IMG/VR virus record: IMGVR_UViG_3300025853_009406
Location: 52,741-116,740 of that record
DNA length: 64,000 nucleotides
Source: a virus
Strand: one strand, 5' to 3'
How positions within the stretch are numbered: position 1 is the stretch's first letter; every line of letters starts with the position of its first letter. Made by a program: the position numbers and the translations under genes. The notes below the pieces were generated by a model. That model did no database searches and was not told where the DNA came from. It was given only the letters and a program-made list of their open reading frames with translations. Below, piece after piece: positions 6,620-11,671 of the stretch.

Positions 6620-6769
6620 GTAGGTCTTTTCATGCACGCCACTTGCTCTTTAGAGAAGCAAGAAACTCATATTAGGGTCATATGACTCCACCACACATTT
6701 TTGAGAGAAATGAGAAACTCCAGGGGTCAATGACCATCCCGACCAGGATTTTTATAGACTCTCCATGTC
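6620..6769 (-). ncRNA. Structured RNA, probably the manA RNA motif
   Basis: Non-coding gap upstream of an M6P-isomerase cupin gene near the tRNA cluster; two repeated GAGTTTC..hairpin..TGGYG modules. Family assigned from recollection, not from a covariance search. Confidence 0.6.
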
Positions 6770-9460: not shown

Positions 9461-9489
9461 ATATTACACCAGTTCTTGGATATTGTCAA
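9461..9489 (-). promoter_or_regulatory. Sigma70-type promoter for tRNA-Gly/Ala
   Basis: TTGACA-N17-TAATAT. Confidence 0.65.
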
Positions 9490-9956
9490 GTCCAAAGGTT
9501 ATGGTCATATTCCCAGTGGCAATTTGGACATAATGGCATTATGTTTTCCTTTGAGTTTATAACACTAATCATAACTTCTTCACTAAAAGAAGATATTGGT
9601 TTTATGTGAGCAATTTCTATATGTTTATTATATCCACATTTAACACATTCGGTAAATCCAAGTTTTTTTCCAAATGCTCTTGCTCGTGTTCTTACCAAAG
9701 CAAATGCTGAGGACTTGTGATGTTTTTCATATATTGCTTCTTTAAGGGTCATATCTTTTACTTCTCTATCTTTTAACCATATCAAATAGTGTTCTTTACA
9801 ACGAGCACGATTTGCTGTTATTGCTTTTCCACAATCAATACATTTATGCTCTGGTTTTCTTTTAGGAACTTTTTTATTATTATAAGAAGCAGCACAACTT
9901 CTTCCACAAAATTTTGGATTTTTTGTTTCTACTTTACAAAACAAGCACTTATTCAT
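9486..9956 (-). CDS. Free-standing HNH homing endonuclease with N-terminal Zn fingers
   Basis: CLFC..FCGRSC and CIDC..CKEH, then CVKCG..IEIAHIKP...NSKENIMPLCPNCHWEYD (HNH core). Confidence 0.88.
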   Translation of the reverse strand: MNKCLFCKVETKNPKFCGRSCAASYNNKKVPKRKPEHKCIDCGKAITANRARCKEHYLIWLKDREVKDMTLKEAIYEKHHKSSAFALVRTRARAFGKKLGFTECVKCGYNKHIEIAHIKPISSFSEEVMISVINSKENIMPLCPNCHWEYDHNLWT

Positions 9957-9960
9957 AATG

Positions 9961-9999
9961 GAACCTTAAAGTTATTTTTATTTATAAACCTTAAGGTTC
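9961..9999 (-). promoter_or_regulatory. Late promoter TATAAATA inside a 13-bp hairpin covering the HNH RBS
   Basis: GAACCTTAAGGTT-TATAAATAAAAAT-AACTTTAAGGTTC-CATT-ATG. Confidence 0.75.
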
Positions 10000-10005
10000 A
10001 AAAAA

Positions 10006-10288
10006 CGTCTCAGGAGGGACTCGAACCCCCGACCAACTGCTTAGCTTACCACTACGGATTTCCCCGCCATTTCTGTTTGTGGTCTGGACTTTCTCTTTAC
10101 CATATCCTAAAAGGACTTAGGCACTTCCCGTCAAGTCTCTACACCTTCATCTTACGATGCTTGGCTCGGGATTATCATAGTCTTAAGACTTTAGAGTTCC
10201 CCGAATTTGAGAAGTTACATTTATAAAGTTTCCCTTATAAAGCTCCTTTGTTAAAGGCAGATGCTCTTTCCAACTGAGCTACTGAGAC
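10006..10288 (-). tRNA. tRNA-Arg (TCT) interrupted by a group I intron (exons 10254-10288 and 10006-10044)
   Basis: 5' exon GTCTCAGTAGCTCAGTTGGAAAGAGCATCTGCCTT and 3' exon CTAAGCAGTTGGTCGGGGGTTCGAGTCCCTCCTGAGACG join to give anticodon loop CT-TCT-AA. Confidence 0.92.
10045..10253 (-). ncRNA. Self-splicing group I intron (IC3 type), 209 nt, no ORF
   Basis: Follows exon U and ends in G; P1 CUU/GAG; P AAATTCGGGGAA, Q AATCCCGAGC, R GTAGAGACTTGACGG, S AAAGAGAAAGTCC; colinear with cyanobacterial tRNA-Leu(UAA) introns. Confidence 0.92.
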
Positions 10289-10374
10289 AAGAGACCTCCC
10301 TGTTTGTGCATCGTTGAGAGGCATGGGAGGGGTGAGACTTATACGAAGTGTGGACCTTCGCTGCTCATAAGACA

Positions 10375-10403
10375 ATCATACCAGTTAAAGATTTGATTGT
10401 CAA
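10375..10403 (-). promoter_or_regulatory. Sigma70-type promoter upstream of tRNA-Arg
   Basis: TTGACA-N17-TATGAT. Confidence 0.75.
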
Positions 10404-10470
10404 GTGTTTTGAGGTCTTACTGGATTTATGAAGTGGCCAGTTTCTACACTAGTTAAAACCTCATTTTTAT

Positions 10471-10656
10471 TTATTCATCGCCCAAAACAAGATATGTCAT
10501 TTCTTCTTGATCTGGAGGAATATTGATCCATTCATCAAACTCTTCTGCAATCGCTACTGCGTCAAACTGAGATTCAATATCACCTTCTGCAAGGTCATGG
10601 ATTCTATTGATTGACCATTCACGAATAAGTTTTACTGGTTCAATCGTCTTTTCCAT
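10471..10656 (-). CDS. Small acidic hypothetical protein
   Basis: MEKTIEPVKLIREWS...DAVAIAEEFDEWI; start moved to 10656. Confidence 0.65.
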   Translation of the reverse strand: MEKTIEPVKLIREWSINRIHDLAEGDIESQFDAVAIAEEFDEWINIPPDQEEMTYLVLGDE

Positions 10657-10882
10657 AATAATCTTTTCTGAAGTATCTGCTGAGGATGTTACTATTGTAG
10701 TATGCTGGTTCTCCTGTGTCAAGGGATTCGGTGAGGACGTTGTTCTGGAAGAGTTGTTTTGTTTCTTCAAAGTTTGTTTTGCCTTTTGTTTTGTGGAGGG
10801 AGAGGATAGTCCGTCTGAATATCCCCTTGCCATATTTTTCCACATCTTCTTTAAGTTCTGGGCAAGATCCATAATAGTTTTT
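10640..10882 (-). pseudogene. C-terminal fragment of the resident GIY-YIG (Seg-like) gene
   Basis: KNYYGSCPELKEDVEKYGKGIFRRTILSLH...EETKQLF...YYNSNI; continuation of the fragment at 11664-11819. Confidence 0.8.
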
Positions 10883-10894
10883 ATAGGTGTTATC

Positions 10895-10923
10895 ATCTTA
10901 AGATATTTATGGAATAAAGTCAA
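10895..10923 (-). promoter_or_regulatory. Outward-facing sigma70 promoter with nested late promoter at the insertion edge
   Basis: TTGACT-N17-TAAGAT with CATAAATA inside the spacer. Confidence 0.6.
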
Positions 10924-10966
10924 GAATATTTTCAGTATAAATATTTTTATGGTAGAAAATATTTTT
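10922..10966 (+). promoter_or_regulatory. Late promoter TATAAATA (10936-10943) inside a hairpin ending at the start codon
   Basis: AAGAATATTTTC...TATAAATA...GAAAATATTTTT-ATG. Confidence 0.65.
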
Positions 10967-11671
10967 ATGACTTGGAAGTATAACAGTGAAGATTTTATAG
11001 AGTCCCCAAAGGGGATAGAAGGATTTGTTTATCTAATAACAAACTTAACCAATGATAGAAAATATATTGGAAAGAAATCTTTTTGGACAAGAAGAAAAGA
11101 TAAAAAAACTGGTAGAAGAAAAACAAAAGAAAGTGATTGGAAAAATTATTTTGGTTCCTGCGATGAACTAAATGAAGATGTAAAACTTCTTGGTAAAGAT
11201 ATTTTTTTGAGGGAAATTCTTTATTTGTGCCCTCACAAAAAATCAATGTCTTACTATGAAACCATGGAACAATTCAAAAGAGATGTTCTAATGACTGATG
11301 ATTATTATAACACAAATATTGAAGGAAGATTTTTTGTTAGTGAAAGATCTGGAATATATGAAGTTGTTATGAAAAATGATAAGTTTTGTGATATGAGAAG
11401 TGAGAAAATGAAAGACAAATCATATAACCCAATGTATAAACCAGAAGTTCGTGAAAAATTTAGTAAGATGTATTCGGGTGAAGGGAATCCAATGTATGGA
11501 AGAAAACTCACAGAAGAACATAAAAAAACACTTACTACATCAAGAAATGTTAGAGTAAGTGATGGAGAAAATGTTTGGGAAAGTGTTACTTCATATATGA
11601 AAGATAAAAAAATTGGGTTTAAAAAATATAAAGCACAATTACAAGAGGGATTAATTTTTATCGTTAACTAA
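10967..11671 (+). CDS. GIY-YIG homing endonuclease with C-terminal NUMOD3 DNA-binding motif
   Basis: GFVYLITNLTNDRKYIGKK, YYNTN, GEGNPMYGRKLTEEHKK. Start at 10967 (or 10949); the ORF-track N-terminal extension is antisense shadow. Confidence 0.9.
   Translation: MTWKYNSEDFIESPKGIEGFVYLITNLTNDRKYIGKKSFWTRRKDKKTGRRKTKESDWKNYFGSCDELNEDVKLLGKDIFLREILYLCPHKKSMSYYETMEQFKRDVLMTDDYYNTNIEGRFFVSERSGIYEVVMKNDKFCDMRSEKMKDKSYNPMYKPEVREKFSKMYSGEGNPMYGRKLTEEHKKTLTTSRNVRVSDGENVWESVTSYMKDKKIGFKKYKAQLQEGLIFIVN

What the first reader, a model, noticed from the sequence alone, without database searches (positions are those of the whole stretch)
10006..10288. Phage tRNA-Arg(UCU) split at the wobble base by a minimal 209-nt IC3 group I intron
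Seen: removing 10045-10253 gives a complete cloverleaf with loop CU-UCU-AA. The insert follows U34, ends in G, has a 3-bp CUU/GAG P1 and has P/Q/R/S cores resembling the cyanobacterial tRNA-Leu(UAA) intron. Known: bacterial tRNA group I introns are described in Leu(UAA), fMet, Ile(CAU) and Arg(CCU), and the very compact Azoarcus intron is about 205 nt. Inference: a host-type intron moved to a new tRNA through the shared CUU exon end. Such split genes are easily missed by annotation pipelines.
Basis: partly seen in the sequence, partly recalled or inferred. Interest (0 to 1): 0.85.

Follow-up and report, generated by a model that had tools for sequence, protein, structure and literature searches.

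The report
Self-splicing intron in phage tRNA-Arg
A cyanophage-like virus keeps its only arginine tRNA gene (anticodon UCU) in two pieces, separated by a compact self-splicing-type RNA intron; standard tRNA finders miss such genes, and many other uncultured phages carry them.

Summary
tRNA-Arg(UCU) runs 10288..10006 and is split after U34 by a 209-nt insert (10253..10045). ARAGORN in intron mode gives exactly these borders. Rfam Intron_gpI scores 66.5 bits against a cut-off of 50. Synechococcus phage S-SZBM1 has the same tRNA without the insert (73 of 74 bases identical).

My hand-drawn P1-P9 structure is supported by covariation across 22 related introns: 90.9% of cells pair, against 27-44% in slid controls, and 34 of 60 pairs show compensatory changes. 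Splicing itself is not shown.

The same split gene occurs in 22 other IMG/VR loci, and more distant versions occur in further viral and metagenome contigs.

Putative group I introns in tRNA-Arg-TCT are reported in Beggiatoaceae, and a 2020 preprint lists 21 bacterial settings. The phage location is what seems unreported: a 2014 review states that all known phage introns lie in protein genes, and ten full-text searches found no counter-example. This scan has noted intron-split phage tRNAs before, on other DNA.

A free-standing HNH endonuclease gene lies 50 nt downstream. Its family sits next to tRNA-Arg(UCU) genes across many phage contigs, so collaborative homing is possible but untested. I class this as a new member of a known kind.

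The parts
10254..10288 (-). tRNA-Arg(UCU) 5' exon: acceptor 5' strand, D arm, anticodon stem 5' strand, C32, U33, U34
   Evidence: ARAGORN -i. 34/35 identical to the S-SZBM1 tRNA-Arg 5' half.
10045..10253 (-). 209-nt ORF-less group I intron (IC3-like), from U1 (10253) to omega-G209 (10045)
   Evidence: ARAGORN -i. Rfam RF00028 66.5 bits. Clean 209-column gap against intronless alleles. Covariation.
10006..10044 (-). tRNA-Arg(UCU) 3' exon: C35, U36, A37, A38, anticodon stem 3' strand, variable loop, T arm, acceptor 3' strand, G73
   Evidence: ARAGORN -i. 39/39 identical to S-SZBM1.
10243..10246 (-). Internal guide sequence, intron nt 8-11 (G-G-A-G). G9.U34, A10-U33 and G11-C32 form P1; G8 can pair with intron U1.
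   Evidence: Read. The homologous column changes with the exon in relatives: GGGC for exon GCCU, GCAG for exon CUGU.
10220..10241 (-). P2: 9-bp hairpin closed by a GAAA tetraloop (L2)
   Evidence: MFE fold. 9/9 pairs have compensatory changes in alignment A2.
10143..10204 (-). P4-P5-P6 domain. P5 carries a 9-nt hairpin extension shared only with L007, and a UCUAAA/UAUGA receptor-like motif. P6a has a GUAA loop.
10123..10215 (-). P3 (intron nt 39-45 with 125-131), enclosing P4-P6 and the 5' strand of P7 (nt 117-121, 10133-10137)
   Evidence: 5 of 7 P3 pairs have compensatory changes.
10087..10122 (-). P8 with a CCUAAG/UAUGG 11-nt-receptor motif (nt 132-155), then J8/7 and the P7 3' strand (nt 163-167, 10087-10091)
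   Evidence: P7 pair U121-A163 switches to A-U in 6 of 22 sequences and is paired in 22/22.
10049..10082 (-). P9 three-way element: CCAC/GUGG stem, a 2-bp GAAA hairpin, and a CGGG-GAAA-UCCG hairpin (L9). UAAG follows, ending in omega-G.
   Evidence: The Rfam model stops 18 nt short of the true 3' end.
10294..10330 (-). abiF RNA motif (RF03085) 5 nt upstream of the tRNA 5' end; probably part of the tRNA leader or transcription unit
   Evidence: 53.8 bits, gathering 37. The same motif lies upstream of tRNA-Arg in S-SRM01, L007, L361, L371, L396 and L421.
9486..9956 (-). Free-standing HNH endonuclease gene (156 aa) starting 50 nt downstream of the tRNA; candidate mobility partner
   Evidence: Pfam HNH_2 E 2.4e-8. 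Relatives lie next to tRNA-Arg(UCU) genes in IMG/VR loci.

Best explanation
This is a working, intron-interrupted tRNA-Arg(UCU) gene of a T4-like cyanophage (Kyanoviridae-like, uncultured). The primary transcript carries a 209-nt group I intron of the compact tRNA-intron type (IC3-like) between U34 and C35.

Inferred mechanism, by analogy with the tRNA-Leu(UAA) and Azoarcus introns. The intron folds into P1-P9. The guide sequence GAG pairs with C32-U33-U34, placing the U34.G wobble pair at the 5' splice site. Free guanosine attacks there. Then omega-G209 docks and the exons are ligated, giving the anticodon loop CU-UCU-AA.

Shown here: the borders, the family match, the covariation-supported fold, an intronless twin allele, and recurrence in many phage contigs. 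Inferred: that splicing happens and is autonomous, and that the tRNA serves the phage's dominant AGA codon.

The intron has no ORF. Its spread is most simply explained by recombination between co-infecting phages, possibly driven by the neighbouring free-standing HNH endonuclease.
For: Borders and family:
- ARAGORN -i gives a full cloverleaf with a 209-nt intron.
- RF00028 scores 66.5 bits against a cut-off of 50, E 1.2e-14.
- The intronless S-SZBM1 tRNA-Arg is 73/74 identical, with a clean 209-nt gap.
- A contig of a DNA run joins 10044 to 10254, skipping exactly 209 bases, so an intron-less allele exists as DNA in such communities.

Fold:
- On alignment A2 I drew a P1-P9b structure. A2 holds 22 sequences that I chose from the 75 split-tRNA calls: short ones spread over the tree.
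- 90.9% of 1212 cells pair, against 27.1-44.1% when partners are slid by 1-3 columns.
- 34 of 60 pairs show changes on both sides.
- The covariation score is 0.452 against at most 0.098 for the slid controls, and 0 of 500 shuffles reach it.
- The MFE fold of the window intron alone recovers P2, P3, P4, P5, P6a, P8 and P9.
- At the aligned guide position the sequence tracks the exon: GAG for CUU, GGGC for GCCU, GCAG for CUGU.

Recurrence:
- 22 IMG/VR loci carry tRNA-Arg(tct) split at the same site by a 201-208-nt intron (L007 and L382 are the same contig). These give 10 distinct intron sequences at 86-93% identity.
- Rfam gathering-level hits occur in L007, L361 and L365.
- More distant U34-site Arg(UCU) introns occur in L130, L280, L328, L331 and L196.

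Functional need:
- It is the only tRNA-Arg among 4 tRNAs on the 116,740-base contig.
- AGA makes up 51% of 1175 Arg codons in open frames of at least 200 codons.
Against: - No splicing evidence. The RNA data available were assembled contigs only, and none shows the ligated exons.
- The exon part of P1 is only 3 bp, although this is shared by the tRNA-Leu(UAA) relatives.
- The fold's z-score against shuffles is weak (-1.68; 12 of 200 shuffles fold as well).
- U27 and U43 are mismatched at the top of the anticodon stem.
- The covariation alignment was built from sequences I chose, and the structure was drawn from the window sequence. That favours it over the slid controls to some degree.
- The contig is only 61% complete, so a second intact tRNA-Arg elsewhere in the genome cannot be excluded.
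Confidence: 0.85

Rival explanations
1. The intron and the HNH gene 50 nt downstream form one collaborative-homing unit. The HNH enzyme cuts intron-less tRNA-Arg(UCU) alleles of co-infecting phages in or near the anticodon region. Repair copies the HNH gene and the intron together, and the intron shields its own genome by splitting the target site. This adds to the best explanation rather than replacing it.
For: - The HNH_2 ORF lies 50 nt downstream of the tRNA.
- Of 26 IMG/VR loci with a full-length relative at 85-93% identity, 21 have the split tRNA-Arg directly upstream, in the same spacing.
- A 38%-identical HNH (E 4e-17) abuts an independently diverged split tRNA-Arg(UCU) on a 314,886-base contig, L196, on the opposite strand.
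- The family as a whole sits beside tRNA-Arg(tct) genes in most of the 74 loci.
- The intronless alleles of S-SZBM1 and S-SRM01 have no HNH gene beside them.
- The intron sits in two different tRNA-Arg bodies, the GUCUCAG type and the GGGCACG type.
Against: - Two loci (L371, L374) have a 92-93% identical HNH next to an intron-LESS tRNA-Arg.
- None of the 16 loci with 64-71% identical HNH has an intron. The nuclease therefore persists without the intron, and self-immunity need not come from it.
- Pfam found no endonuclease domain in the two or three ORFs I tested beside each of the split tRNA-Arg genes of L130, L111, L136, L280, L331 and L204.
- No cleavage data exist.
- Co-occurrence within one 85-93% lineage may be plain shared descent.
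Confidence: 0.3
2. The insert is a decayed group I intron that no longer splices, so the gene is a dead tRNA.
For: No splicing data. P1 is only 3 bp. A related locus (L384/L385) has only a roughly 45-nt insert at the same site, which shows that these inserts can decay.
Against: - The core is conserved and covaries.
- U-1 and omega-G are kept in all 22 close loci.
- The exons are 73/74 identical to an uninterrupted phage tRNA.
- 10 distinct intron sequences keep all helices.
- It is the only tRNA-Arg on the contig, and AGA is the main Arg codon.
Confidence: 0.07
3. The intron is real but splicing depends on a protein helper (host or phage) and is not autonomous.
For: The very short P1 and A/U-rich peripheral helices give a modest fold stability (z -1.68).
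Against: - Two GAAA tetraloops (L2, L9) face a canonical CCUAAG/UAUGG receptor motif in P8 and a receptor-like motif in P5. As recalled, not tested here, this is the architecture that makes the Azoarcus intron self-sufficient.
[quoted passage not shown] I recall, but did not see, that its P1 is equally short.
Confidence: 0.08

Closest known systems
Group I intron of cyanobacterial and plastid tRNA-Leu(UAA) ('Leu.3Ug' in Williams 2020; classed IC3 in the group I intron database according to that preprint)
   Same: - Same insertion point between U34 and position 35.
- Same exon end CUU paired to GAG with a U.G wobble.
- ORF-less, about 200-250 nt, same core.
- Viral-contig and Bacteroidota tRNA-Leu(UAA) introns share the 15-19-nt J6/7-P7 word. 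One of them, in LR756501, is 72% identical over 163 nt.
   Different: The host gene is tRNA-Arg(UCU), and the genome is a phage, not a cyanobacterium or plastid. I made no direct comparison with a cyanobacterial sequence.
Azoarcus tRNA-Ile(CAU) intron (about 205 nt, IC3)
   Same: Compact size. P2 and P9 GAAA tetraloops face receptor motifs in P8 and P5. Located in a tRNA anticodon loop. The Azoarcus features are recalled; the window features are read.
   Different: The Azoarcus intron lies after the anticodon ('5Ug' in Williams 2020), not inside it, and is bacterial. No Azoarcus sequence was available here for alignment.
Putative group I introns in tRNA-Arg-TCT of Beggiatoa 'BOGUAY' and Candidatus Thiomargarita nelsonii (passage in PMC4853749, which cites MacGregor et al. 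2013)
   Same: The same tRNA species is interrupted by a putative group I intron and is likewise missed by annotation.
   Different: These are bacterial chromosomes. Their splice site and sequence were not seen: the cited papers are not held, and only the citing passage was read.
Cyanophage S-PM2 psbA group I intron with the free-standing endonuclease F-CphI (Zeng, Bonocora and Shub 2009; seen only as a reference-list title; details recalled)
   Same: An ORF-less group I intron in a cyanomyovirus, with a free-standing homing-endonuclease gene immediately beside the interrupted gene.
   Different: That host gene codes for a protein. Cleavage of the intron-less allele is shown there and not here.
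SegB, the free-standing GIY-YIG endonuclease in the T4 tRNA gene cluster (abstract of PMC13096335 in search listings; older work recalled)
   Same: A free-standing homing endonuclease that lives in, and acts on, a phage tRNA gene region.
   Different: A different nuclease family, and no intron is involved in T4.

Membership tests
Group I intron (Rfam RF00028) | Covariance-model score at or above the curated gathering score | tested here: met
   66.5 bits against 50, E 1.2e-14. Close relatives: L007 67.1, L365 64.6, L361 63.2.
Group I intron (Rfam RF00028) | 5' splice site after a U that forms a U.G wobble in P1 with an internal guide sequence | tested here: met
   U34.G9, U33-A10, C32-G11. Kept in all 22 close loci. 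The guide changes with the exon in relatives.
Group I intron (Rfam RF00028) | Terminal omega-G at the 3' splice site | tested here: met
   G at 10045. 64 of 75 ARAGORN split-tRNA calls in the family have both U-1 and a terminal G as called.
Group I intron (Rfam RF00028) | P3-P7 pseudoknot and P4-P6 domain supported by covariation | tested here: met
   P3: 5/7 pairs compensatory. P4: 100% paired, with one G-C to U-A switch. P7: 100% paired, with one switch in 6/22. P6 and P6a: 5 of 7 pairs compensatory.
Group I intron (Rfam RF00028) | Guanosine-dependent self-splicing | not testable with these tools
   RNA runs were available only as assembled contigs, and no ligated-exon contig was found in them.
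IC3 subgroup (tRNA-type group I introns) | Sequence kinship with established IC3 tRNA introns | tested here: inconclusive
   It clusters with tRNA-Leu(UAA) introns from viral contigs and Bacteroidota. Williams 2020 states that the classical tRNA introns are all IC3. No reference IC3 sequence (Anabaena, Azoarcus) could be aligned here.
IC3 subgroup (tRNA-type group I introns) | Compact architecture without P5abc; L2 and L9 GNRA loops with receptors in P8 and P5 (definition recalled) | tested here: met
   L2 is GAAA and L9 is GAAA. P8 has CCUAAG/UAUGG, and P5 has UCUAAA/UAUGA. Docking itself is inferred.
Functional tRNA-Arg(UCU) | Canonical cloverleaf with a 7-nt anticodon loop CU-UCU-AA after intron removal | tested here: met
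   ARAGORN -i. There is one U27.U43 mismatch.
Functional tRNA-Arg(UCU) | Orthology with uninterrupted phage tRNA-Arg genes | tested here: met
   73/74 identical to the S-SZBM1 gene annotated tRNA-Arg.
Functional tRNA-Arg(UCU) | Arginine identity elements A20 and C35 (rule recalled) | tested here: met
   The D loop AGUUGGAAA has an A at the position I number 20. C35 is the first base of the 3' exon. Aminoacylation was not tested.
Collaborative homing unit (ORF-less intron plus free-standing endonuclease) | Endonuclease gene adjacent to an ORF-less intron | tested here: met
   HNH_2 ORF 9486-9956, 50 nt from the 3' exon. The two ORFs that overlap the intron have no Pfam or PHROG family match.
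Collaborative homing unit (ORF-less intron plus free-standing endonuclease) | The endonuclease cuts the intron-less allele at or near the insertion site, and the intron confers immunity | not testable with these tools
   Only co-occurrence is available: 21 of 26 close HNH loci have the intron and 2 have an intron-less tRNA-Arg.

The most novel reading that the evidence does not exclude
Phage tRNA clusters host a whole, so far undescribed population of IC3 introns. These hop between tRNA species that share C32-U33-U34: Leu UAA, Arg UCU, Lys UUU, UCA, Ala UGC and Ser UGA. In the cyanophage tRNA-Arg(UCU) case the ORF-less intron travels with, and may give self-immunity against, a free-standing HNH endonuclease family specialised on tRNA-Arg(UCU) genes. 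That would be the first collaborative-homing pair aimed at a tRNA gene.
Probability: 0.3. Interest if true: 0.72.

Novelty: new member of a known kind. Interest (0 to 1): 0.55.

Why it matters
- It contradicts a textbook-level generalisation. The 2014 review PMC3984707, section 11, states that all phage introns observed to date are in protein-coding genes despite many phage tRNA genes.
- Default tRNA finders skip such genes, so phage tRNA repertoires and codon-adaptation analyses are under-counted. Here the missed gene is the contig's only tRNA-Arg and matches its dominant Arg codon.
- It gives a compact natural ribozyme family (about 200 nt, many variants) with two insertion registers in one tRNA, after U33 and after U34. 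In each register the guide sequence matches the exon. This is a ready-made system for studying how group I introns retarget.
- It offers a testable case of an endonuclease family tied to one tRNA gene.

Tried and rejected
RNA evidence for splicing. The look-up of sequencing runs listed 6 runs on record as RNA, all kept only as assembled contigs. I laid X13, X16 and X18 (RNA) and X2 (DNA).
- RNA contigs of X13 and X16 cover 10144-10450 and 10130-10450 without mismatch. That is the upstream region, the 5' exon and the first 110-124 intron bases, so either unspliced precursor or DNA carry-over.
- No RNA contig joins 10254 to 10044.
- The joint 10034 to 10260, with 16 foreign letters, is a different tRNA.
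- This says nothing either way about splicing.

The single genome-contig scan returned 23 loci, none cyanobacterial. The 'host-type' origin therefore stayed untested.

Pattern CTGCCTTTAACAAAGG. The 20 viral loci had no similarity to the intron, so these were chance matches.

Pattern TAGTGGTAAGCTAAG. Only 9 of 190 matches passed my core filter. That filter was too strict: it required GAC where the close family has TAC or AAC. It therefore missed many true copies, which the HNH-based search recovered later.

Polyphyly of the Arg(UCU) introns.
- The first FastTree suggested three origins.
- IQ-TREE used 73 rows: the ARAGORN-called introns shorter than 300 nt that end in G. I left out ORF-bearing introns and those with doubtful borders. 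It leaves the Arg(UCU) introns in an open polytomy.
- The AU test does not reject one clade (p 0.26 for all 7 rows, p 0.25 for the three U34-type rows).
- I make no claim of multiple origins beyond the starred pairing of L130 with an Ala(UGC) intron.

Protein-coding reading. ORFs 9789-10226(+) and 10235-10375(-) overlap the intron but match no Pfam or PHROG family.

Named phage isolates. No record of the 50,697-record phage collection holds a split tRNA-Arg(UCU) like the window's, L125's or L130's. Records very near the window may be hidden by the tool.

Literature.
None returned a paper describing a group I intron in a phage tRNA gene.
- The library lacks most subscription journals.
- Table 1 of Williams 2020 is an image, and supplements are closed. 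A listing there, or in the supplement of Devoto 2019, cannot be excluded.
- PMC3697557 (MacGregor 2013c) is not held.
Full report
WHAT IS THERE

The feature lies on the minus strand. Read 5' to 3' from 10288 down to 10006, it consists of three parts:
- a 35-nt 5' exon: acceptor GUCUCAG, D arm, anticodon stem UCUGC, then C32, U33, U34;
- a 209-nt insert, 10253..10045;
- a 39-nt 3' exon that starts C35-U36-A37-A38 and ends with the acceptor 3' strand and G73.

Default ARAGORN lists three tRNAs in the window (Met, Ala, Gly) and not this one. With introns allowed it reports tRNA-Arg(tct) with a 209-nt intron, 'gcctt-Intron-ctaag'. Rfam's Intron_gpI model matches 10264..10063 on the minus strand at 66.5 bits (gathering 50, E 1.2e-14). 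This is the only such match on the whole 116,740-base viral contig, an IMG/VR record estimated 61% complete.

The contig is cyanomyovirus-like:
- 72 of the 90 phage records matching the 2-kb surroundings are Synechococcus phages;
- nrdA, nrdB and gmd lie nearby;
- G+C is 36.3%.

IS IT MORE THAN CHANCE?

The strongest single control is an intron-less twin. Synechococcus phage S-SZBM1 has an annotated tRNA-Arg that aligns to the two exons with one mismatch in 74 positions and a clean 209-column gap. S-SRM01 has a more diverged one. The borders cannot be shifted, because the bases next to the block differ from the block's own end bases. A contig of a DNA run also joins 10044 to 10254, skipping exactly 209 bases. 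The empty site therefore exists as DNA in such communities.

THE FOLD

From the window sequence I drew P1, P2, P3, P4, P5, P6/P6a, P7, P8 and a three-way P9. I tested the drawing on an alignment of 22 relatives (A2). I chose these 22 from the 75 split-tRNA calls: short introns spread over the tree.

Results of the covariation count:
- 90.9% of 1212 cells form standard pairs, against 27.1-44.1% when the 3' partners are slid by 1-3 columns.
- 34 of 60 pairs carry changes on both sides.
- The covariation score is 0.452, against at most 0.098 for the slid controls, and 0 of 500 shuffles reach it.
- P7 is paired in all 22 sequences. Its last pair is U-A in 16 and A-U in 6.
- P4 switches G-C to U-A in about half of the sequences.
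- P2, P6a, P8's inner stem and P9b covary at every pair.

Caveat: the structure was derived from one of the sequences, which favours it over the slid controls to some degree.

P1 was mis-aligned by MAFFT (57% paired), so I read it by hand. At the homologous guide position:
- the window, L007 and L130 have GAG opposite the exon end CUU;
- L111 and L125 have GGGC opposite GCCU;
- an Asn(GUU) intron has GCAG opposite CUGU.

The MFE fold of the window intron alone recovers P2, P3, P4, P5, P6a, P8 and P9. Its energy is only modestly better than shuffles (-50.3 kcal/mol, z -1.68).

L2 and L9 are GAAA tetraloops. P8 holds the CCUAAG/UAUGG motif and P5 a UCUAAA/UAUGA variant. That these are tetraloop receptors, as in the Azoarcus intron, is my recollection and not a test.

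The Rfam model ends 18 nt before the true 3' end, because the P9 region here has an extra hairpin.

RELATIVES

Core 15-mer scan. Together with four loci found earlier, that gives 123 sites.
- ARAGORN placed 75 of the 123 inside a split tRNA: 49 tRNA-Leu(UAA), 6 tRNA-Arg(UCU), and 20 calls in other tRNAs.
- 64 of the 75 have U-1 and a terminal G as called.
- 55 have the CUU exon end plus a GAG in the first 40 intron bases.
- The other 11 calls probably have wrong borders, so I do not rely on them.
- 48 sites had no tRNA call.

HNH-based search. Searching with the neighbouring HNH protein (74 loci) uncovered the window's own lineage.
- 22 loci have tRNA-Arg(tct) split at the same site by a 201-208-nt intron.
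- These give 10 distinct intron sequences at 86-93% identity to the window's.
- My earlier core patterns missed them because one J7/3 base differs.
- Only L007 shares the window's 9-nt P5 hairpin extension.

More distant Arg(UCU) introns. U34-site examples occur in L130, L280, L328, L331 and L196. In L111 and L125 (L125 is identical to L136 and L139) the intron sits one base earlier, after U33, with a matching guide sequence.

Bacteria. The 19-mer core occurs in tRNA-Leu(UAA) and tRNA-Tyr introns of Bacteroidota, Chloroflexota and Acidobacteriota (23 loci, none cyanobacterial).

Tree. The IQ-TREE tree (73 rows, 202 columns) gives these starred pairings:
- the window with L007 (100/99);
- L130 with an Ala(UGC) intron (97/89);
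- L111 with L125 (100/99).

Deeper branches are open, and the AU test does not reject a single Arg(UCU) clade (p 0.26). I therefore do not claim how many times tRNA-Arg was invaded, nor from where.

DOES THE PHAGE NEED THIS tRNA?

It is the only tRNA-Arg among the four tRNAs on the contig. AGA makes up 51% of 1175 arginine codons in open frames of at least 200 codons (a crude count). The contig is incomplete, so another copy cannot be excluded.

HOW IT PROBABLY WORKS

The mechanism is inferred by analogy with the tRNA-Leu(UAA) and Azoarcus introns; none of these steps is shown here.
1. The pre-tRNA is transcribed, and an abiF RNA motif lies 5 nt upstream.
2. The intron folds.
3. GAG pairs with C32-U33-U34.
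4. Guanosine attacks after U34.
5. Omega-G209 replaces it, and the exons are ligated to give the loop CU-UCU-AA.

The RNA data I could reach were assembled contigs. They show only an unspliced stretch across the 5' junction, which may be precursor or contaminating DNA.

MOBILITY

The intron has no ORF. Two free-standing endonuclease genes flank the tRNA:
- a 156-aa HNH gene starts 50 nt downstream on the same strand;
- a SegE-like GIY-YIG/NUMOD3 gene lies upstream on the other strand.

The HNH family is tied to tRNA-Arg(UCU).
- Among the 26 loci with a full-length relative at 85-93% identity: 21 have the split tRNA-Arg directly upstream, 2 have an intron-less tRNA-Arg of another sequence type, 2 have a tRNA-like gene with a roughly 45-nt insert at the same site, and 1 cannot be judged.
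- Among the 16 loci at 64-71% identity: 12 have an intron-less tRNA-Arg directly beside the gene, and none has an intron.
- Many further loci keep only a C-terminal fragment of the gene next to tRNA-Arg.
- A 38%-identical HNH also abuts the independently diverged split tRNA-Arg of L196.

The intron sits in two different tRNA-Arg bodies, the GUCUCAG type and the GGGCACG type.

This fits a nuclease that homes to tRNA-Arg genes and drags the intron along, as proposed for the psbA intron and F-CphI of S-PM2. The intron-less carriers show that the nuclease does not need the intron, and nothing here shows cleavage. I put this reading at about 0.3.

COMPARISON WITH WHAT IS KNOWN

The kind is known: IC3-type introns in bacterial tRNA anticodon loops.

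It is outdated in two ways:
- Williams 2020 (whole text read; Table 1 is an image that I could not see) extends it to 21 settings in 80,413 bacterial genomes.

What I could not find in print is a group I intron in a phage tRNA gene.
- The 2014 review PMC3984707 (passage in section 11) says that all phage introns observed to date are in protein-coding genes despite many phage tRNA genes.
- My ten searches returned nothing later. The limits of those searches are stated under Tried and rejected.
- Earlier notes of this scan report intron-split UCA tRNAs on other phage DNA, so the scan has met this kind before. One of those notes led me to the Williams preprint.
- The unannotated 735-kb phage assembly LR756501 carries a tRNA-Leu(UAA) with a 205-nt intron.

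VERDICT

The identification as a group I intron in a phage tRNA-Arg(UCU) is well supported. Splicing and mobility are inferred. The 'new tRNA host' and 'host-type origin' parts of the reading are, respectively, outdated and untested. It is a new member of a known kind, of moderate interest because of the phage setting, the breadth of the family in viral contigs, and the tRNA-Arg-linked HNH family.

Noticed in passing
window 10294-10330 (-); also L003 1511-1547, L007 6356-6392, L361 1132-1168, L371 1336-1372, L396 1326-1362, L421 1379-1415: An abiF RNA motif (RF03085, 45-54 bits, gathering 37) sits directly upstream of phage tRNA-Arg(UCU) genes, both intron-containing and intron-less. A crude motif search found it upstream of 13 of 22 split and 12 of 41 whole tRNA-Arg genes next to HNH relatives. 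Its role as a leader, promoter or processing signal is unknown.
   Followed up: partly
window 9486-9956 (-); L361-L434: An HNH_2 endonuclease family lies almost always beside a tRNA-Arg(UCU) gene, upstream or downstream, in 74 IMG/VR loci. Many loci keep only a C-terminal remnant next to the tRNA.
   Followed up: partly
L385 1334-1452 (also L384): A tRNA-like gene with the GUCUCG acceptor and the same anticodon stem carries only a roughly 45-nt insert at the U34 site, next to an 85%-identical HNH gene. The base after the insert is A, not C. It may be a decayed intron or a different small insert.
   Followed up: partly
L111 7719-7936 (-), L125 593-813 (-), identical in L136 and L139: tRNA-Arg(UCU) genes split one base earlier, after U33, by a related 202-205-nt intron whose guide sequence is GGGC instead of GAG, matching the exon end GCCU. 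Rfam scores the L125 intron at 66.2 bits.
   Followed up: partly
L028-L146 (IMG/VR loci): IC3-type introns with U-1 and omega-G occur in 49 tRNA-Leu(UAA) genes of viral contigs. Single ARAGORN calls occur in Lys(UUU), a UCA tRNA, Ala(UGC), Ser(UGA), Asn(GUU), Lys(CUU), Met(CAU) and His. Eleven further calls have doubtful borders.
   Followed up: partly
L005, L049, L085, L106, L128: tRNA-Leu(UAA) introns of 671-698 nt in viral contigs are long enough to hold an ORF. In L005 the stretch upstream of the core looks, by eye only, like the end of an HNH-type gene.
   Followed up: no
L004 1443-1733 (LR756501.1, 735-kb uncultured phage): A tRNA-Leu(UAA) with a 205-nt intron lies in an unannotated huge-phage assembly. 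Rfam reported no match in this locus even at E 0.01, which shows that the Rfam model misses family members.
   Followed up: partly
L170 (Pelagibacter phage HTVC120P) about 1136-1326; L171 (Bacillus phage Tavor_SA) about 1193-1449: Stretches similar to the intron core (72-77% identity) lie in the gaps between two 'capsid protein' CDSs and between two 'tape-measure' CDSs. These are probably unannotated small group I introns in protein genes.
   Followed up: no
window 10607-11671 (+): A SegE-like GIY-YIG plus NUMOD3 endonuclease ORF lies on the strand opposite to its neighbours. Its 5' part overlaps the minus-strand ORF 10471-10923 (phrog_23981), and the domain starts at residue 123.
   Followed up: no
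L007 7217-7466 (+): A permuted, cyanobacterial-type tmRNA match (RF04321 78.6 bits; RF01851 71.1 bits) lies on a 22-kb viral contig, about 540 nt downstream of the split tRNA-Arg.
   Followed up: no
L125 2728-3138 (-): A GOLLD RNA (RF02032, 322 bits) lies about 2 kb from the split tRNA-Arg on a viral contig.
   Followed up: no
window 6628-6722 (-): A wcaG RNA motif (RF01761, 53.9 bits, gathering 42) lies next to the gmd/epimerase sugar genes.
   Followed up: no
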